From positions 5,726-69,725 of the IMG/VR virus record IMGVR_UViG_3300019889_000001: 64,000 nt of DNA; one strand, given 5' to 3'. The stretch is from a virus. The position numbers and the translations under genes are program-made. Under the pieces are notes generated by a model. The model did not search any database. It worked only from the letters and a program-made list of their open reading frames with translations, and was not told where the DNA came from. Of the stretch, positions 9,774-20,451 are shown piece after piece; position 1 is the first letter of the stretch; the number at the start of each line of letters is the position of its first letter.

Positions 9774-9912
9774 CGGCCGAATTCGTCGAAGGGGGATCCC
9801 CCCCACGAATAAAGGGGCTTTTTCTGGGGGACACGTCCCTACCCCTCCCGGGGCGCCCAACAAGCCCCCCTCCCCCCATGGCTATTCCGAAGATCTACAG
9901 AAGGGAGACGCC

Positions 9913-10104
9913 GTGAAGCGTCCGCTCTGCGAACTGTGCCCATCGGACGGCACCGCGATCATTCTCGAGCCCGACCCGTTCATGGATCGCCGGTTCTCCG
10001 ACATCCACCGGGTGCGGGTCGTCTGCGCCGAATGCGACCGCCGATTCTCGAACCACGACGACATCCGGTTCACGCCCTTCCATCCGACAGTTTCGACACT
10101 GTGA
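9913..10104 (+). CDS. small Zn-ribbon protein
   Basis: CELC...CAECDRRF; SD GGGAG. Confidence 0.6.
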   Translation: MKRPLCELCPSDGTAIILEPDPFMDRRFSDIHRVRVVCAECDRRFSNHDDIRFTPFHPTVSTL

Positions 10105-14000: not shown

Positions 14001-15227
14001 AAGACGAGCAGGACGCGATCGGCGACATACTCGACGACCGCGACGGCGACCACGACGGGTTCGGCTCCCATTGGAATGATCGGATCTCGGCGATCGAAGG
14101 GTACTGCGACTACTGCGAGCGCGAAGGCCACACGTTTCGCTCGTGCCCACGACGAGACGACCACCAGGACCAGTTGTGAGTGGCACCTCCCCGCGGCCAG
14201 GGCGGTCGTGGGTGTGCGAGTCCGATCCTCGTTGCATCCGCCCGGAACATCGCGGCCCGCACTTCTACCGGGAATGCGCGACTGCCGGCTGTACCAGCCA
14301 CGCTCGTCGTGAGGAACCGATGTGCCCTCGGCATGAGGACCGGGCGACGTACGAGAAATACCAAGAGGAGTCATGAGTTTCATCGTCCGCTGTTCTGATG
14401 GTGCGCAACGTCACCGCGATCCGTTTCCGACTCGCCGCCAAGCCGACGAGTTCTCATGGTGGGGTCACTGTTGCACCAGCGAACACGAAATCATCTCCCT
14501 GGAGGAGACATGCCCGCACCCCACGATCTCGACCCCGGCGCCATGACCGAAGCCGAGAGGCTCGCGAAACGCAGGTACCAAGCGCATTTCGCCTTCGAGA
14601 TGATGCCTGACCCGCCCGACGAAGACAAGGAAGCCGAATGAGCACCCAAATCTGGAAATTCCGAATCCCCGTCGACGGAATCACCGTCGACCTGTCCCGC
14701 CCGACCCCGATGTTCGTGGGCTGTGATCCGCGCTCGTCATCCATCGACGATGAAGATCTGCCTTCGATCTGGATCAAATGCCACTCGGATGGGATCCCCA
14801 CTCGACGGCGGTACTACCTCGTTGGCACAGGCCATTCAATACCACCAGGCAACGACCGTTATTGCGGGTCCGCGGTCTGCGGGTCGTACGTGTGGCATGT
14901 CTTCGAATCGGAGAAGCCATGAGTCGCTCAGATCACCCCTCGCTCGCCCAGAACGCTCACATCGAGTACGTCATCCGGTTTGAGGGCGACGACATGGTCT
15001 GCTTCTTACAGGCCGGCGCGAACTTCATCGAGTTGTATCGCGTCGAGCATGGATGTGCTGACGGAGACACAGAGATGTGCCTCGAGCAGCTCAATCGTTG
15101 TCAGTTGATGTGCGAAGACGACTACGGAACCGGTCTGCCTTGGATCGTCTCCCAAGACCCGGAAAACGACCCGCGCCTGTCCTGGACGGGCACGGTCCCT
15201 ACGAATATGAACAGGAGAACCACATGA
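11018..15227 (+). other. operon of about 18 small, overlap-coupled hypothetical genes (early/accessory region)
   Basis: Chain of ATGA/GTGA-coupled ORFs, e.g. 11018-11209, 11325-11687, 11684-11911, 11908-12126, 12123-12563, 12763-12960, 13042-13230, 13227-13409, 13570-13761, 13758-13955, 13955-14179, 14638-14922, 14919-15227; several with CxxC pairs. Confidence 0.7.
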
Positions 15228-15766
15228 CCACGAACGAGTTCATCCCCGGCGAACTGCGAGCCCGGATTGATGCGACGGGCGACGAGTTCGACCGCTTCGA
15301 TCTCGCCCGGAAGTTCATTCGGGACATGAAACGGAAGCATCCCGACGAATGGGACGAGTGGATGTTCGACGCCGAAACGTCACGCATCCTCACCATGATC
15401 CGACGGATCGTGGCGGACCGCCGACACACGGTGCGGAAACGTCACATGCGTGACGTCGCCAACAACCGGGCCTCCGCGACGATCAAGGCGAAGACGCCGA
15501 CCCCGGTTGCGTTTCCGGCCGTCCCGGCGGGCTCAATGCATTACGGCGTCGAGAACGGGAAATTCCGACGGCTGCGCGCCATGCGTCGCCCCGAAGTCCT
15601 CGCTACCGCCGCCCATTGTGAACATCTCGGCCAGGGCTCGCTACTCCAGGCCGCCGTTTTGCGGACCATCGCGAAACGGATGCCCGACGACGTTGTCGTT
15701 GTGCGAGACGTCTGCACCGACGAACAGCTCGACACGCTGTTCGGCGAGCAGCAAGTCACCTTCTGA
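15224..15766 (+). CDS. hypothetical protein immediately upstream of the pentamer array
   Basis: SD AGGAG, ATG 15224; 180 aa, basic central helix. Confidence 0.7.
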   Translation: MTTNEFIPGELRARIDATGDEFDRFDLARKFIRDMKRKHPDEWDEWMFDAETSRILTMIRRIVADRRHTVRKRHMRDVANNRASATIKAKTPTPVAFPAVPAGSMHYGVENGKFRRLRAMRRPEVLATAAHCEHLGQGSLLQAAVLRTIAKRMPDDVVVVRDVCTDEQLDTLFGEQQVTF

Positions 15767-15786
15767 ACGCAGCGCCAGGCTGCTAT

Positions 15787-15962
15787 ACGACTCCCCTCCA
15801 CCCCCCGTCCCAGTTCACCTCATCCCATACCGACAACCCAACCCGTCCCAGTACTGCCCACCCACTGCCCTCTCCGACTACCCGTCCCTCCCCGTCTCCT
15901 TCCTCCCCGCCCCGACCACCCTCCTCTCTCCTGGCCAACCTCGCCCCATACCGACAACCCAA
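15787..15962 (+). repeat. non-CRISPR array: four CCGAC-delimited units of 6-7 (NN-CCC) pentamers; candidate guide RNA
   Basis: (C)CGAC at 15788, 15830, 15874, 15912, 15951; 5-nt periodicity; 18-bp direct repeat CCCATACCGACAACCCAA at 15824 and 15945. Confidence 0.8.
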
Positions 15963-15970
15963 AGGAAACA

Positions 15971-16705
15971 ATGCCCACAGCGACACTCACCAAGCCGACG
16001 TTCAGGGACGTCTTCGCTAAACATCAGCCCAAGGTGTGGAAGCACCGCTACCACGTCGAGCTGTACGTCGAGAACCTCACCGGCGGCACACCAAACGACC
16101 CGCGCGTCATCGAGAAGTGGTTGCGTACCAAAGTGCTCAACGACAACGCCGCCCTGAACGAGGCGATCAGCAAGACGATGGTCGAGATGGGCGTCGACCC
16201 CCTCGAAGATCCGGCCGCCGGCGAGAAGGCGATGGAGAAGTACATCTCCTCGGCGCATCTCAACGGCTTCAAGCGGGTCGAAGGACAACTCATCTACGAG
16301 GGTCGGAACGCGAAGGCCGCCATCAAGGAGGCGTTCGGTGTCGCGCTCGGCTCGGGCCACATCAAGGCTCGTGGTTGGGGTGAGACCAACAAGGGCTCGA
16401 AGGCCTTCGTCGCCGAGCACATCATGATCCCCGACCGATACATCCCCATCCTTCGAGAGGACGGGTCGCCGTTCACGGAACCGACCGGCATCAACCAGCG
16501 CTTCGTCCACACCCACAACGGCGACGGCATCCAGTACGAAGAGTTCTGCGATCCGGCCCTCCTCCGCTTCGAGGTCTGGACTGACTGGGATTTCGACCAG
16601 CACTGGCCGACGATCTGGTCGATCGGCGGCAAGCAGGGCGTCGGTGCGACCCGCTCAATGGGGTGCGGCGTGTACTTCGTCTCGCGTTGGGACAAGCAGT
16701 CATGA
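15971..16705 (+). CDS. solitary Cas7/RAMP-superfamily protein
   Basis: N-terminal strand YHVELYVENLTGGTP; LIYEGRNAKAAIKEA (cf. RAMP IPGSSLKGALR); C-terminal Gly loop GVGATRSMGCGVYFV (cf. GLGGxRSRGYGRV); SD AAAGGA. Confidence 0.75.
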   Translation: MPTATLTKPTFRDVFAKHQPKVWKHRYHVELYVENLTGGTPNDPRVIEKWLRTKVLNDNAALNEAISKTMVEMGVDPLEDPAAGEKAMEKYISSAHLNGFKRVEGQLIYEGRNAKAAIKEAFGVALGSGHIKARGWGETNKGSKAFVAEHIMIPDRYIPILREDGSPFTEPTGINQRFVHTHNGDGIQYEEFCDPALLRFEVWTDWDFDQHWPTIWSIGGKQGVGATRSMGCGVYFVSRWDKQS

Positions 16706-17052
16706 TCGCCCAACTCACCCTCGCGGCCCTCCTGCTCGCCGCTCCCGCACCACCCGAGGTTCCCCAGAGCGAGGTCGACTACATCAACGAGGTGGTGGGA
16801 ATTTACTTCGAGAACATCTTCCCCGACTCGTTCGCCCCCGCGTGCAACGTGACCTTCGCAACGGCGGGCGATGCCGTGACCGGCACGTGCTATGCCTCTA
16901 GCGGAATCTCGGTGATCGTATTGCTCGTCGTGCATTCCGGCATCGAAGTCACCATCATCCCCATCGGTGAGCATCAGTACGTCGACAACGCGGAGATGGC
17001 GAGTCCCGAACTAACACTCACCGCTGACGCTCCACTCGCGCCCACGCCGTGA
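16702..17052 (+). CDS. small exported protein
   Basis: MIAQLTLAALLLAAPAPP signal-like N-terminus; ATGA-coupled to the Cas7-like gene. Confidence 0.6.
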   Translation: MIAQLTLAALLLAAPAPPEVPQSEVDYINEVVGIYFENIFPDSFAPACNVTFATAGDAVTGTCYASSGISVIVLLVVHSGIEVTIIPIGEHQYVDNAEMASPELTLTADAPLAPTP

Positions 17053-17252
17053 GCTTTCGGACCGAACCCATTGTCGTGTCGTCCCTGACATGCTAGGCTA
17101 GCGTCCGTGCAGTTCTCGGACGAGATGAGCCTCATGTTCGGCGGAACCGAGTGCGAGCTGGCGGTTGATGAGATCCGCCAGCTCGTGCTCGACGCCCGCA
17201 CCCGCCTCCTCGAGGCGCATCCATTCTTCAACGACAACAACAAGGAGACTCA

Positions 17253-18275
17253 ATGAAGACCCGCATATTTGCCGCCGCAGTTCTGGCGGCAAGTGCACTC
17301 ACCATCGGCATCGCGCACGGCAACCCTGCCGCCGCCCACCACAACACAGTCAGTTGCCAATCACCCGGTGTCTGGCTCATCGAGAACTCGGAGTCCGACA
17401 AATCCGAGACGTTCGTCACAGACCAAGGTCACTCAGGCAGCATTCCGGGTGGAGAGTCCACGACGGTCGCCTACTCCGGCACGTCGCTGACGGTGACCGG
17501 CACCTGGAACAACGGCCAGAGCCAGTCCACGACCGGAACGGGCGATTGCACGGTTCCGACCGAAACGACTGACCCGCCCGTCGAGACAACCGAGCCTCCG
17601 GTGGAGACCACCGAACCTCCCGTTGAGACGACGGACCCGCCCGTCGAAACCACGGAACCTCCGGTGGAGACAACCGAGCCGCCCGTCGAGTCCACAGAAC
17701 CCCCAGTGGAGACGACCATTCCGATCGACGCCAGTTTCGACATCGACGTCGAAGGCACCTGTTCGAACACGTTGACCGTCACCATCGGCGGCGGACCTGC
17801 CGACCTGTACGCCTACGTCGTCGTCAACGGCACCCCGATCGAAGGTCCGCTCGGCACCTACGCCGAAGGCGTTCACCAGACGAACGGATCACTCGATCAG
17901 GACGTGACGATCGTCTTGACGATCACCGCGACATTCGAAGACGGCACGGTCCTATCCGACACCGAGACGATCGTCGCCGACTGTGCACCCGACGTCACCA
18001 CGACGACGGAGCCTCCGACCGTGACGACTGATCCACCCGTCGTCACGGTTCCACCCGTCGTCACGGTTCCGCCGGTCTGTGAACCGCTCGACGGCGAGCC
18101 GATCGATGGTGATGGCGACGGATTCGTACTCGACGGCACGACCGGTGTCCGACCGCTCCGCACCACCTGCGATCCGCCGACGACCGTCGCTGTGTCGCCC
18201 TCCGTGACGCCGACCACCGAGAAGGGGACCGGCGACACGTACACGAAGCCGCAGACGCTTCCGGCGACACGCTGA
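17253..18275 (+). CDS. secreted Pro/Thr-repeat surface protein ending in LPXT(R)
   Basis: Signal peptide, (PPVETT[ED])n, C-terminal LPATR-stop. Confidence 0.85.
   Translation: MKTRIFAAAVLAASALTIGIAHGNPAAAHHNTVSCQSPGVWLIENSESDKSETFVTDQGHSGSIPGGESTTVAYSGTSLTVTGTWNNGQSQSTTGTGDCTVPTETTDPPVETTEPPVETTEPPVETTDPPVETTEPPVETTEPPVESTEPPVETTIPIDASFDIDVEGTCSNTLTVTIGGGPADLYAYVVVNGTPIEGPLGTYAEGVHQTNGSLDQDVTIVLTITATFEDGTVLSDTETIVADCAPDVTTTTEPPTVTTDPPVVTVPPVVTVPPVCEPLDGEPIDGDGDGFVLDGTTGVRPLRTTCDPPTTVAVSPSVTPTTEKGTGDTYTKPQTLPATR
17560..17718 (+). repeat. 21-bp coding tandem repeat (PPVETT[E/D] x7)
   Basis: Degenerate GA[CG]CC[GT]CC[CG]GT[CG]GAGAC units. Confidence 0.85.
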
Positions 18276-19193: not shown

Positions 19194-19526
19194 ATGACGA
19201 AGACGTACACCACTGAGGAAGCCTGCGAAATAGCGGGCCTTTCCGAACGGGTTGTCCGCTACTGGGTGAGTGTCGGAGCGGTTGTGCCGCTCGTTCCCCC
19301 TGCCGGCCAGGGCTCACACGTCCGGTGGACGCCAGACCAGGTTCATCTCCTCGGGATCATGCGTACCATTCGCGATCACACGATCAACAGTCTCGACTTG
19401 CGGTTCGCGTTCAGCGCGACGACCGCAGGGGAGATCTGGAAGGCTCTCGTGAAGGGCGAGTCGTGGTCGTTCTCGATCGATGTCGATTCGGCCGGTCATG
19501 TCACTCTCTTGTCGAGTGAGCGATGA
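19194..19526 (+). CDS. MerR-like HTH DNA-binding protein
   Basis: YTTEEACEIAGLSERVVRYWVSVGAV.P....GSHVRWT. Confidence 0.8.
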   Translation: MTKTYTTEEACEIAGLSERVVRYWVSVGAVVPLVPPAGQGSHVRWTPDQVHLLGIMRTIRDHTINSLDLRFAFSATTAGEIWKALVKGESWSFSIDVDSAGHVTLLSSER

Positions 19527-19837
19527 AACCGGCCCGGGAGACACAGAGGGCGTACCGCGCTCGAGTGCAAGCCAGCATCATTCGTGGTGAGGTTCCCCTC
19601 ACCGACGAGCATCGTCGGGCCGCCGTTGTGATCGGCTCGACGAAATGGGCGAGCGTCCGTTCTGTCGCCACCGAGCTGGATGTCACGATCTCGAAGGCGT
19701 GGCTCCTCATCCTGAACCTGAAAGCCCACGGGGTCGTCCGGAGTGTTCCTCGTGACGTGAACGTCTTGGCGTTGGCCCCCGACATCACGATCATCGCCGG
19801 CGACGTCTGCCGTGCCATCCGCTTGGAGAATTCATGA
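19523..19837 (+). CDS. winged-HTH protein
   Basis: SVRSVATELDVTISKAW..ILNLKAHGVV. Confidence 0.6.
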   Translation: MKPARETQRAYRARVQASIIRGEVPLTDEHRRAAVVIGSTKWASVRSVATELDVTISKAWLLILNLKAHGVVRSVPRDVNVLALAPDITIIAGDVCRAIRLENS

Positions 19838-20451
19838 CCTACGACCGATCACAGATCGCCGCGATCGATACCGAGACTTTAGGACTGGACCCTGATTACC
19901 ATCCCCTCTGGGAGGTCGCAGTCATCGTCGACGGCGTCGAACACCAATGGTTCCAGAAGGTTGGGTTGCGCGCCCAGCTGCAGGCCGACCCATACGCAGT
20001 CGAACTCGGCGGATTCAACGAACGCTACGACCCCGACATCGCGCTCGACCCGCATGACTCCGTACGACGCTTCAACGAACTCGTCACCGGACGACATCTC
20101 GTCGGCGCCTGCCCCTGGTTCGACTCAGAACGGATGCATCGCACCCATCGCATGTCGCTCCCCGCCTACAACGGTGAAACCGTCGCCGAACAGATGGAAG
20201 CACGCCGCACGCCGTGGCATTACCACCTCATCGACGTCGAAGCTCTCGCCATCGGCTACCTGTGCGGATTGCAACAGGGATCAGACGACTACTACGAGAC
20301 CCGGCAGTTCGCGACCTTGCCATGGAAGTCGACCGAGCTGTCACTCGCCCTCTACGTCGACCCCGAGCAGTTCTTGCCGAAACACACGGCGCTCGCGGAC
20401 GCACGCTGGGCCCTCGCTATGTGGGAAGCCATGATGGGAGATCCGGCATGA
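19834..20451 (+). CDS. DEDDh 3'-5' exonuclease (DnaQ/oligoribonuclease-like)
   Basis: AIDTETLGLD, GA.PWFD, IDVE, HTALADA. Confidence 0.9.
   Translation: MTYDRSQIAAIDTETLGLDPDYHPLWEVAVIVDGVEHQWFQKVGLRAQLQADPYAVELGGFNERYDPDIALDPHDSVRRFNELVTGRHLVGACPWFDSERMHRTHRMSLPAYNGETVAEQMEARRTPWHYHLIDVEALAIGYLCGLQQGSDDYYETRQFATLPWKSTELSLALYVDPEQFLPKHTALADARWALAMWEAMMGDPA

What the first reader, a model, noticed from the sequence alone, without database searches (positions are those of the whole stretch)
15787..16705. Solitary Cas7/RAMP-like gene with an adjacent pentamer-coded repeat array: candidate phage RNA-guided system
Seen: the 244-aa ORF has RAMP/Cas7 hallmarks (N-terminal strand + GGxP, EGRNAKAAIKE helix, C-terminal GVGATRSMGCGVYFV Gly loop). 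No cas1/2/3/5/6/10 gene and no repeat-spacer CRISPR array are visible in the window. The 5' flank is a four-unit array in which each 38-44 nt unit is CCGAC followed by alternating variable dinucleotides and near-constant CCC triplets, and the last partial unit runs straight into the gene's SD. Established: Cas7 polymerises along guide RNA with a fixed nucleotide step. Inference: one protomer binds each 5-nt step, gripping the constant triplet and displaying the NN bases, so the NN string specifies a gapped target (competing phage, host promoter or self). From memory, a similar solo-Cas7 plus GGY/NN architecture has been reported as VIPR; this needs checking. Here the constant triplet on the gene strand is CCC/YYC, so it would be a divergent variant.
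Basis: partly seen in the sequence, partly recalled or inferred. Interest (0 to 1): 0.95.

Follow-up and report, generated by a model that had tools for sequence, protein, structure and literature searches.

The report
Actinophage VIPR-type RNA-guided silencing module
A phage gene for a Cas7-like protein sits just behind a short array of five-letter repeats that most likely encodes gapped guide RNAs of the recently described VIPR kind, in a variant form whose relatives aim at conserved genes of rival phages.

Summary
The 244-aa ORF (15971-16705) matches no Pfam, PHROG or PADLOC model, but its AlphaFold model is a RAMP/Cas7 fold (VIA Z 10.7-9.9 to type VII Cas7 and Csm3). Its 5' flank carries CGACNNCCC five times in 165 nt, giving units of 43, 44, 38 and 39 nt.

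VIPR (solo RAMP plus GGY/NN pentamer guides) is in print in 2026 bioRxiv preprints.

Homologues keep the array. In 55 related loci I counted 500 units of the form CGAC+(NNcCC)n, and their lengths peak at 28, 33, 38, 43, 48 and 53 nt (5n+3).

Guides from relatives, read with the published one-base-skip rule, hit conserved protein motifs with the skipped base at the wobble position:
- ImmA/M78 HELGHLVLH: 61 IMG/VR hits, against 4 and 0 for the two controls.
- DnaB GELDLIVAK.
- A primase-helicase Walker A.

The window's own four guides found no convincing target.

This clade differs from published type II VIPR in four ways: the constant letters are C on the gene's strand, the guides are short and GAC-punctuated with no structured tail, the partner gene lies upstream, and the profile link to type II Vipr is only marginal. 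Which strand is the RNA remains open.

Verdict: a VIPR-type system, and a new variant of a known kind.

The parts
15224..15766 (+). Conserved upstream partner gene (about 180 aa from the ATG at 15224; the open frame starts at GTG 15077). Candidate accessory ('vap-like') protein.
   Evidence: It aligns along its whole length with the gene directly upstream of the array or vipr in 14 other loci, at 14-22% identity to the window's copy. None of the 15 has a Pfam hit. The model is helical, pLDDT 81.6. Fold matches are weak: Foldseek gives none at E<=0.001, and the best VIA Z is 4.8, with winged-helix domains among the top rows.
15788..15830 (+). Array unit 1 (43 nt): CGAC, then TCCCC TCCAC CCCCC GTCCC AGTTC ACCTC ATCCC ATA, running into the CC of the next CCGAC.
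   Evidence: Sequence; motif positions; register from the family logo.
15831..15874 (+). Array unit 2 (44 nt): CGAC, then AACCC AACCC GTCCC AGTAC TGCCC ACCCA CTGCC CTCTC. The register after the fifth pentamer is uncertain.
15875..15912 (+). Array unit 3 (38 nt): CGAC, then TACCC GTCCC TCCCC GTCTC CTTCC TCCCC GCC.
15913..15951 (+). Array unit 4 (39 nt): CGAC, then CACCC TCCTC TCTCC TGGCC AACCT CGCCC CATAC.
15952..15970 (+). Terminal boundary motif CGACAACCC followed by the Shine-Dalgarno stretch AAAGGAAACA.
   Evidence: Many relatives have the same ending, with the terminal CGAC..CC 19-37 nt before an RBS and the vipr start. In 34 of 51 loci the last motif lies within 110 nt of the tblastn match start.
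15971..16705 (+). vipr-like gene: a solo RAMP/Cas7-fold protein of 244 aa, with a beta1-GGxP start, an inserted three-helix bundle (about 44-94), helix 111-127 (EGRNAKAAIKEA), a beta-hairpin region 173-204 and a C-terminal Gly loop (GVGATRSMGCG).
16702..17052 (+). Downstream ORF of 116 aa whose ATG overlaps the vipr stop (ATGA). It has a hydrophobic N-terminus. Whether it belongs to the module was not tested.
   Evidence: Sequence. No PHROG, Pfam or PADLOC hit. Conservation in other loci was not examined.

Best explanation
This is a VIPR-type (Viral Interference Programmable Repeat) module of an uncultured actinobacteriophage. It consists of a partner gene (15224-15766), a four-guide array (15788-15961) and a solo RAMP gene (15971-16705).

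Proposed mechanism:
1. Each array unit is (NN-cCC)n closed by GAC, so its length is 5n+3 nt.
2. The array is transcribed.
3. One RAMP protomer binds per pentamer. It holds the constant triplet and exposes the NN pair.
4. The NN string reads double-stranded DNA that carries NN-x-NN-x, skipping one base each step. In coding targets the skipped base is the wobble position.
5. Binding silences genes of competing phages or prophages.

What is shown:
- the fold;
- the array and its 5-nt quantisation across relatives;
- that guides of relatives decode, under the 1-nt skip rule only, to conserved motifs of ImmA/M78 regulators, DnaB helicases and a primase-helicase.

What is inferred by analogy with the published type II system: polymerisation, triplet gripping and silencing.

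What is open:
- Which strand is the RNA. I put about 55% on the C-rich sense strand (the array as leader of the vipr mRNA) and 45% on the G-rich antisense strand.
- What the window's own four guides aim at.

The confidence given is for the core reading, a VIPR-type guide system, and not for the choice of strand.
For: Fold:
- AF2 model pLDDT 82.9.
- VIA Z 10.7 (8yhd_A, rmsd 3.8, 139 aligned), 10.2 (9g9a_D) and 9.9 (6ae2_B Csm3); rows 1-24 are all CRISPR RAMPs.
- Foldseek PDB gives 43 matches at E<=0.001, led by Csm and type VII.
- BFVD hits are viral solo RAMPs, E 8e-11 and 5e-9.

Family: 864 homologues at E<=1e-3. The nearest Atlas clusters are 88-100% viral. The genome is a 69.7-kb virus record.

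Array in relatives:
- 44 of 55 non-duplicate loci hold at least one cluster of 4 or more CGAC...C motifs (93 clusters; 71 with at least 60% of spacings 5n+3 or 5n+4).
- Controls: 3 clusters, none of them quantised, in 94 unrelated loci of twice the total length.
- Of 500 units, length mod 5 is 3 in 236, 4 in 128, 0 in 47, 1 in 28 and 2 in 61.
- Logo: NN variable, then c at 0.45-0.57, C at 0.56-0.71 and C at 0.95-0.69.

Code, tested on guides of relatives:
- The NN string of an L017 guide with one N between pairs gives 61 IMG/VR hits. The same pairs in reversed order give 4, and with two N they give 0.
- 51 of the 61 encode H[ED]LGHLVLH in frame, with the skipped base at the wobble position.
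- 8 of 8 sampled ORFs are Peptidase_M78, and 6 of those 8 also carry an HTH.
- A second guide (L001) gives 12 hits. All 6 in contigs of at least 65% GC are DnaB helicases, at GELDLIVAK or GELELIVAK.
- A third guide (L004) hits a Prim-Pol/D5 helicase at its Walker A, VLYGTGANGK.
- An L002 guide matches L025 at 18 of 18 positions, with the skip at the wobble position.

Literature: mechanism and rule as published.
Against: - No target was found for the window's own guides. The phage's own genome gives nothing above shuffled controls. Unit 2 gives 13 IMG/VR hits, all in contigs of at most 51% GC and with no shared gene. Unit 1 gives 16 hits, a chance-level number, with one in a high-GC terminase gene.
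- The window's array is short and more degenerate than most relatives'.
- Profile-profile similarity to the published type II Vipr family is marginal: hhalign probability 26%, E 7e-4 over 156 columns. Against the single SUSP1 protein it is 0.3%.
- A PDB sequence search finds nothing.
- The pooled cross-locus search showed no general excess for skip 1. Counts at 0, 1 and 2 mismatches were skip0 1/14/227, skip1 1/9/204, skip2 0/7/178 and skip3 0/8/205.
- One 24-base guide pattern gave 0 hits.
- One 22-base guide gave only a 2-mismatch hit that is not wobble-aligned.
- No RNA data exist for the locus, so transcription, processing and binding are unshown.
Confidence: 0.8

Rival explanations
1. The system is the same, but the guide is the G-rich antisense transcript. 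Its units read (GGg-NN)n ending in ...GGG-WW-GUC. That is the published 'NNNGG/NNNNG' kind of consensus with a short constant 3' end, transcribed against the vipr gene.
For: - All published VIPR guides are G-based, and alternative consensuses NNNGG, YNNNG and NNNNG are reported.
- The best conserved letter here (C5, 0.95-0.69) would be the first G of the triplet.
- The constant block (CGAC plus a W-rich first pentamer) would then lie at the 3' end, as the published 'tail' does.
- Strong hairpins flank arrays equally on both sides: 8 of 48 downstream and 9 of 48 upstream at <= -20 kcal/mol. Terminators therefore do not favour the sense strand.
Against: - In SUSP1 the vrRNAs lie on the same strand as vipr.
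- Here 84 of 93 motif clusters are on the vipr strand.
- None of 51 loci has 3 or more antisense motifs upstream.
- Nearest flanking genes within 400 nt are co-oriented with the C-rich strand in 21 of 23 cases downstream and 21 of 28 upstream. The gene caller is crude and makes known errors.
- Only about 20-35 nt separate the last motif from the vipr start. There is no room for a promoter, so vipr transcription must cross at least the last units in the C-rich sense.
- The positions that hhalign aligns to the type II G-contact residues differ: D177-W178 becomes A-[ST], and the thumb RYRPIF becomes IQYEEY. This rests on a low-confidence alignment.
Confidence: 0.36
2. The window's copy is an idle or decaying module. 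The protein may be intact, but the four short, degenerate units no longer guide anything.
For: - There are only four units of 6-8 pentamers, several of them off-consensus.
- The lag-5 signal is modest.
- No target was found in the phage's own genome or in IMG/VR at exact match.
Against: - The ORF is full length and keeps all 37 invariant columns of the family alignment.
- GC3 is 0.86, typical of a live gene in this genome.
- The boundary motif is intact five times.
- Exact-match scans of one viral collection miss targets with any mismatch and miss unsampled phages.
Confidence: 0.12
3. The array is not a guide. It would be a C-rich leader or a DNA-level array of protein-binding sites that merely travels with the RAMP gene.
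For: - Arrays sit as 5' leaders of vipr and of other genes.
- There is no RNA evidence (no RNA holder listed).
Against: - NN strings of guides spell conserved protein motifs of foreign genes in frame under one spacing only, 61 hits against 4 and 0, and this was repeated with two other guides.
- Unit lengths are quantised in steps of 5, which fits one protomer per pentamer.
Confidence: 0.05
4. The clade acts on RNA, or co-transcriptionally, like its closest structural relatives (Csm3, Cmr4, type VII Cas7). Sense-strand C-rich guides would pair with target mRNAs.
For: - The top fold matches are RNA-targeting Cas7 proteins.
- In all 3 pairs found without choosing a strand, and in a fourth that I decoded from one strand only, the C-rich-strand NN string is antisense to the target's coding strand.
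Against: - Four pairs are too few, and one of them is biased by how I looked.
- Published VIPR binds dsDNA on either strand.
- No nuclease motif was examined.
- The reading depends on the unsettled strand.
Confidence: 0.1

Closest known systems
VIPR type II (Escherichia phage SUSP1, P. fulva prophage; bioRxiv 10.64898/2026.04.26.720920 and .720927; Results, Discussion and named Methods sections read, supplements closed)
   Same: - Phage-borne solo RAMP protein with RRM core, helical-bundle insert, thumb and Gly loop.
- Flanking arrays of pentamers with three constrained and two free letters.
- No cas genes and no CRISPR array.
- One-base-skip reading with the skipped base at the wobble position.
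- Targets are genes of rival phages, including lysis-lysogeny regulators.
   Different: - The protein is 244 aa against 195 aa, and the profile link is only marginal (hhalign 26%).
- The constant letters are cCC on the gene's strand, where SUSP1 has GGY on the gene's strand.
- Guides have 5-12 pentamers (28-63 nt), against 9-16 repeats in RNAs of about 100 nt.
- Units abut, punctuated by GAC, with no roughly 40-nt pseudoknotted tail.
- Arrays hold up to about 30 units.
- The conserved partner gene lies upstream of the array, not downstream of vipr.
Other VIPR types with 'related consensus' (NNNGG, YNNNG, NNNNG) and 'staggered arrays with overlapping vrRNAs' (same preprint, text and the legends of Figs S17 and S18 only)
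   Same: If read on the antisense strand, the repeat here is GGgNN, which fits NNNGG. Adjacent units here also share letters: the last pentamer of a unit uses the CC of the next CCGAC. [quoted passage not shown]
   Different: The figures, tables and data files that would show whether this actinophage clade is one of the seven types are not visible to me. The text never mentions Actinobacteria, C-rich repeats or antisense arrays. The staggered type is described with a 1-nt overlap, and the text says sRNA-seq confirmed only the ribozyme-interspersed and single-vrRNA systems, not the staggered arrays.
VIPR-like arrays with non-canonical cores in the COMPASS/Evo-PIN survey (bioRxiv 10.64898/2026.10.21.760802; passages and Methods 4.22 read)
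   Same: Period-5 arrays next to Vipr-like folds whose fixed trinucleotide is not GGY. The survey reports 21 clusters with 6,318 sequences.
   Different: The text names GAC/NN, CAC/NN, WGT/NN and TGH/NN. CCC or GGG cores do not occur in the text, and the full list is in a figure I cannot see. Strand there was set by embedding consistency, not by RNA data.
CRISPR Cas7-family RAMPs of types III and VII (Csm3, Cmr4, Cas7 of type VII)
   Same: They give the best structural matches (Z 10.7-9.2). One protomer binds per fixed step of guide RNA, and a thumb breaks the duplex periodically.
   Different: - No Pfam RAMP hit.
- No Cas10, Cas5, Cas6 or Cas1/2 and no repeat-spacer array nearby.
- The step is 5 nt with 2 read, instead of 6 nt with 5 read.
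- The guides are genome-encoded repeats, not acquired spacers.

Membership tests
VIPR | Vipr protein: minimal RAMP with RRM core, Gly-rich loop and thumb | tested here: met
   AF2 model pLDDT 82.9. VIA Z 10.7-6.8 to CRISPR RAMPs in rows 1-24. Foldseek E down to 9e-6. The Gly loop G223/G225/R228/S229/G231/G233 is invariant in 35 sequences. Thumb and bundle are assigned from secondary structure only.
VIPR | Sequence or profile homology to published Vipr proteins (SUSP1 / X1U2U4 family) | tested here: inconclusive
   hhalign of 35 against 30 sequences gives probability 26%, E 7.2e-4, 156 collinear columns that include helix 1 and the Gly loop. The single-sequence comparison gives 0.3%. Whether the paper's PSI-BLAST set of 2,664 proteins contains this clade cannot be checked, because the supplements are closed.
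VIPR | Tandem pentanucleotide repeats (3 constrained + 2 free letters) in the intergenic DNA beside vipr | tested here: met
   Window. Relatives: 44 of 55 loci, 500 units, logo and 5-nt length steps, against 3 unquantised clusters in 94 control loci.
VIPR | Constant triplet GGY in the RNA | tested here: inconclusive
   On the gene's strand the triplet is cCC, which does not fit GGY. On the other strand it is GGg, which fits the reported NNNGG variant. The transcribed strand is unknown.
VIPR | vrRNA of 9-16 repeats capped by an invariant structured 3' tail (type II definition) | tested here: not met
   Units have 4-12 pentamers, mostly 5-10, and abut with only GAC between them. No tail of about 40 nt is present. 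This feature defines type II, not VIPR as a whole.
VIPR | Target recognition by NN pairs with a one-nucleotide skip | tested here: met
   Met for relatives' guides only: 61 hits (skip 1) against 4 (reversed pair order) and 0 (skip 2). In-frame ImmA/M78, DnaB and Prim-Pol/D5 motifs. An 18/18 match in L025. For the window's own guides no target was found. This is inference from sequence, not binding data.
VIPR | Minimal, mostly viral locus without cas genes or a CRISPR array | tested here: met
   Virus record of 69.7 kb. Actinophage-like MuF/portal relatives. Neighbours have no Cas, Pfam, PHROG or PADLOC hits. No CRISPR-like repeats.
VIPR | Accessory vap gene with a DNA-related function | tested here: inconclusive
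   A conserved partner gene lies upstream in 15 of 15 loci examined. None has a Pfam hit. Winged-helix-like fold matches are weak, Z <= 4.8.
VIPR | Array RNA expressed and bound by the protein | not testable with these tools
   No RNA run was listed for the locus.
CRISPR-Cas class 1 effector (type III/VII Cas7) | Cas7 within a cas operon (Cas10/Cas5/Cas6 or Cas14) next to a repeat-spacer array | tested here: not met
   No such genes among the neighbours scanned and no array.

The most novel reading that the evidence does not exclude
The guide is the C-rich sense transcript. On this reading a large actinophage clade of Vipr-like RAMPs has switched the gripped triplet from GGY to cCC. It strings many short guides head to tail, with a bare GAC as punctuation instead of a structured tail. 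It also carries guides that are uniformly antisense to the coding strand of their targets, so the complex could pair with target mRNA as well as with DNA.
Probability: 0.4. Interest if true: 0.78.

Novelty: new variant of a known kind. Interest (0 to 1): 0.6.

Why it matters
VIPR was described only in 2026, and on G-based guides from proteobacterial phages. This locus belongs to a large clade, mostly viral and actinobacterial (864 homologues at E<=1e-3), whose arrays differ in three ways: the constant letters differ (or the strand is inverted), the guides are short, and a three-letter punctuation replaces the structured tail.

If the RNA is C-rich, the constant triplet of the code is itself evolvable. 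That widens the design space for a very small programmable DNA binder.

The decoded guides also show the logic of the code plainly. By skipping the wobble base, a guide is in effect written against a protein motif (the HExxH of ImmA proteases, the DnaB arginine-finger region, a Walker A loop). It therefore covers many rival phages at once and resists synonymous escape.

A cultured phage with the same system, Microcystis phage Mae-JY09, offers a direct experimental handle.

Tried and rejected
Searches that gave nothing for the ORF:
- Family libraries: Pfam, PHROGs and PADLOC.
- PDB sequence profile: best E 0.17, unrelated.
- Rfam on the whole window: 0 matches.
- RNA evidence: no RNA holder was listed for window 15000-17500.
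- Cultured phages: tblastn against 50,697 phage records found one relative only, Mae-JY09, at 29% identity.

Strand evidence that led nowhere:
- Promoter and terminator scans of the window region gave no promoter and nothing informative.
- L057 has a bidirectional terminator right after its array, and I noted hairpins after arrays in L047, L010 and Mae-JY09.
- The systematic count shows no asymmetry: 8 of 48 arrays have a hairpin <= -20 kcal/mol downstream and 9 of 48 upstream. I therefore dropped terminators as strand evidence.

Targets of the window's own guides:
- The phage's own genome gave nothing above shuffled controls; the skip-3 'hits' are the array itself.
- Unit 2 gave 13 IMG/VR hits in low-GC contigs with no shared ORF.
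- Unit 1 gave 16 hits. Nine belong to one low-GC gene family with short open frames, and one lies in frame in a high-GC terminase. I judge this chance level.

Other negative or weak searches:
- A 12-pentamer guide of L036 gave 0 hits.
- An 11-pentamer guide of L001, searched in 121 genomes, gave one 2-mismatch hit that is not wobble-aligned, probably chance.
- The pooled search of 181 guides against the held loci showed no general excess for skip 1.
- The repeat against the 61 ImmA loci is circular for the L017 and L024 guides. For the rest it gives 12 hits against 8, 7 and 7.
- Of the 12 hits of the DnaB guide, 6 are one identical sequence in short ORFs of 53-60% GC contigs. These remain unexplained.
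- The partner protein has no convincing fold match.

Rows dropped before counts: I dropped L015, L023, L027, L035 and L043 because their upstream sequences duplicate those of L002, L022, L005, L033 and L042 (seen).

Papers:
- I read the Results, Discussion, Methods 18 and 20 and passages of 10.64898/2026.04.26.720920.
- I read sections 5-6 of 10.64898/2026.04.26.720927.
- I read passages and section 4.22 of 10.64898/2026.10.21.760802.
- For 10.64898/2026.10.15.759431 I ran only a term search that found none of my terms.
- Supplementary tables and figures were not visible. They may already place this clade in one of the seven types.
- The statement that a cCC/GAC-punctuated actinophage form is not described rests on searches and on in-paper term searches.
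Full report
**What is there**

The window is part of a 69,725-base single-contig virus record, with 63% G+C. Its structural genes lie on the - strand and are distantly related to those of mycobacterial, Gordonia and Microbacterium phages. A MuF-like protein has 28% identity at best, and 831 records match.

Between a + strand gene ending at 15766 and the ATG at 15971 lies a 204-nt gap that is 57% C and 10% G. In it CGACNNCCC occurs at 15788, 15831, 15875, 15913 and 15952. That is five copies in 165 nt, against 13 on the rest of that strand of the genome.

The four full units are 43, 44, 38 and 39 nt long. They read as CGAC followed by pentamers NN-cCC. The fifth motif is followed at once by AAAGGAAACA-ATG. 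C is periodic at lag 5 (0.195; 4 of 2000 shuffles reach it).

The window's array taken alone, however, is short and fairly degenerate.

**The protein**

The 244-aa product has no Pfam, PHROG or PADLOC match and no sequence relative in the PDB. It has 864 homologues at E<=1e-3, and every one that bears a source name is called hypothetical. Several come from Streptomyces, Actinomadura and Nocardiopsis. The nearest Atlas clusters are 88-100% viral.

An AlphaFold model built on 35 sequences has pLDDT 82.9.
- Foldseek against the PDB gives 43 matches at E<=0.001, led by Csm3 and type VII Cas7.
- The exhaustive VIA search gives Z 10.7 (8yhd_A, rmsd 3.8, 139 aligned), 10.2, 10.1 and 9.9. Its first 24 rows are all CRISPR RAMPs.
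- Among viral models the best matches are solo RAMPs of uncultured phages, E 8e-11 and 5e-9. One of them, of 194 aa, is named 'Cas system-associated RAMP'.

**VIPR is real and in print**

A 2026 preprint describes Viral Interference Programmable Repeat systems. They consist of a solo RAMP (Vipr) and vrRNAs of 9-16 YNNGG repeats with an invariant 3' tail. The NN pairs read dsDNA with one base skipped, usually the wobble base. Targets lie in rival phages. The paper reports seven types, alternative consensuses NNNGG, YNNNG and NNNNG, and 'staggered' arrays.

A companion paper shows one protomer per repeat, with G1 and G2 held by H17, D177, R138 and W178, and Y3 in a pyrimidine pocket.

A later survey reports 21 clusters of VIPR-like arrays with non-GGY cores.

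**Do homologues keep the array?**

I fetched 10 genomic and 50 viral loci and dropped 5 duplicates. Most show the same design directly 5' of the gene.
- 44 of 55 loci hold at least one cluster of 4 or more CGAC...C motifs. There are 93 clusters, 84 of them on the vipr strand, and 71 have at least 60% of spacings equal to 5n+3 or 5n+4.
- 94 unrelated loci of twice the total length hold 3 clusters, none of them quantised.
- In the 250 nt upstream of the gene, 31 of 51 loci have 3 or more sense motifs and none has 3 or more antisense motifs.
- Arrays also occur downstream of vipr, as in L006, L010, L038, L051, L056 and the cultured Microcystis phage Mae-JY09. Rarely they lie on the other strand (L047, L057), where they are again co-directional with the adjacent genes.

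The 500 units have lengths that peak at 28, 33, 38, 43, 48 and 53 nt. Length mod 5 is 3 in 236 units, 4 in 128, 0 in 47, 1 in 28 and 2 in 61.

The logo is C-CGAC, then N N c C C repeated. The last C is at 0.95 next to CGAC and falls to 0.69 seven pentamers on. The first NN after CGAC is T/A-rich.

The simplest description of a unit is (NNcCC)n followed by GAC. The last pentamer of a unit borrows the CC of the next CCGAC.

**Do the NN strings mean anything?**

Because the target is double-stranded, the pattern NN-x-NN-x is the same whichever strand is the RNA.

First guide (ImmA).
- Three loci (L017, L024, L036) carry near-identical guides.
- The L017 string with one N between pairs gives 61 exact hits in IMG/VR. 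The same pairs in reversed order give 4, and with two N they give 0.
- 51 of the 61 encode H[ED]LGHLVLH in frame, with the skipped base at the third codon position. The other 10 are Q/H variants allowed by the pattern.
- 8 of 8 sampled ORFs are Peptidase_M78 (ImmA/IrrE), and 6 of those 8 have an XRE-type HTH.
- The L024 and L036 variants differ in NN in ways that would spell HELGHLV[IM]H and HELGH[IM]V[IM]H.

Second guide (DnaB). A recurrent guide (L001, similar in L004) gives 12 hits. All 6 in contigs of at least 65% GC are DnaB helicases, at GELDLIVAK or GELELIVAK. The other 6 are one repeated sequence in short ORFs.

Third guide (primase-helicase). I decoded an L004 guide by eye as V[FL]YGTGA[NK]GK. 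It hits one of 401 actinobacterial genomes with one mismatch, in a Prim-Pol/D5_N/DUF5906 protein at VLYGTGANGK. The control gives 0.

Fourth pair. An L002 guide matches L025 at 18 of 18 positions, wobble-aligned in a 335-aa open frame.

These results support the one-base-skip code and the rival-phage targets in this clade.

Against this stand several results:
- The pooled search shows no general excess for skip 1.
- A 24-base pattern found nothing.
- A 22-base pattern found only a doubtful hit.
- The window's own guides found nothing convincing.

**How it differs from published VIPR**

In SUSP1 (KT454805.2) the 195-aa vipr gene is flanked by NNGGY tracts on its own strand. Here the gene's strand carries NNcCC.

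The profile comparison with a 30-sequence type II alignment is marginal: probability 26%, E 7e-4. It is nonetheless collinear over 156 columns, including helix 1 and the Gly loop. In that alignment GLGDWRPRFGRF of type II faces GIGA[ST]RSQGxGRY, and the thumb RYRPIF faces IQYEEY. The residues that hold G1 and G2 in type II are thus not kept. This is a low-confidence alignment and I treat it as a lead only.

There is no structured tail, guides are short, and arrays can exceed 30 units.

A conserved partner gene of about 180 aa precedes the array in 15 of 15 loci examined. None has a Pfam hit, and the model is helical with only weak winged-helix-like matches.

**Which strand is the RNA?**

For the C-rich sense strand:
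- Arrays are co-oriented with vipr and with flanking genes. The nearest downstream gene is on the same strand in 21 of 23 cases and the nearest upstream gene in 21 of 28. The gene caller is crude.
- The terminal motif lies 19-37 nt before the RBS and start in many loci, which leaves no room for a promoter. vipr transcripts must therefore cross the array.
- Type II guides are co-oriented with vipr.

For the G-rich antisense strand:
- Every published consensus is G-based.
- The best-kept letter would be G1.
- The constant block would lie at the 3' end, like the published tail.

Hairpins do not decide the matter: 8 of 48 arrays have a strong hairpin downstream and 9 of 48 upstream. No RNA run was listed. 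I put 55:45 on the sense strand.

**Verdict**

The locus is a VIPR-type guide system (0.8). The window's copy has unidentified targets. I could not find the clade's particular form in the text of the four VIPR-related preprints (searches; term searches). I therefore rate it a new variant of a known kind, with interest 0.6.

Noticed in passing
L017:3729-3776, L001:184-231, L002:3674-3722, L004:3491-3543 (guides) and their targets in L063-L123, L160-L168, L025:7947-7972, L169: In all four decoded guide-target pairs the NN string read on the C-rich strand is antisense to the target's coding strand. Three pairs were found without choosing a strand; the fourth I decoded from one strand only. This is too few to call a bias, but if it holds it bears on mechanism and on how guides arise.
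   Followed up: partly
L017:3729, L024:3609, L036:3406: Three phages carry variants of one guide. Their NN differences would change the encoded target motif from HELGHLVLH to HELGHLV[IM]H and HELGH[IM]V[IM]H, as if the guides track amino-acid variants of the ImmA zinc-binding motif.
   Followed up: partly
L062 (PP395641.1 Microcystis phage Mae-JY09) 2989-3735 and 3740-4130: A cultured phage carries a 29%-identical homologue, annotated hypothetical. It is followed by about ten CGAC-delimited units and a strong hairpin near the genome end. This makes it a ready experimental system.
   Followed up: partly
window 15224-15766 and the upstream genes of 14 loci (alignment A3): A conserved helical protein of about 180 aa always lies upstream of the array or vipr. 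It has no family match, only weak winged-helix-like fold hits.
   Followed up: partly
window 17253-18275: A 340-aa ORF with a signal-like N-terminus contains about 7 tandem copies of a 21-nt coding repeat (PVETTEP) at 17561-17717. PHROG 25538, unknown function.
   Followed up: no
window 9780-9920: An intergenic stretch with long G and C runs and palindromes (GGGGGATCCCCCCC, CCCCCCTCCCCCC). It scored in my pentamer scan but has no CGAC motifs.
   Followed up: no
window 19194-20451: A MerR-type HTH gene (19194-19526), a PHROG 'transcriptional regulator' (19523-19837) and a DNA polymerase exonuclease-like gene (19834-20451) lie 2.5 kb downstream in the same early-gene block.
   Followed up: no
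L157-L159, L161-L163: Six IMG/VR contigs of 53-60% GC share one identical 26-nt match to the DnaB-type guide inside short open frames (GELELIVAKLTLPVK). It is not a DnaB gene and remains unexplained.
   Followed up: no
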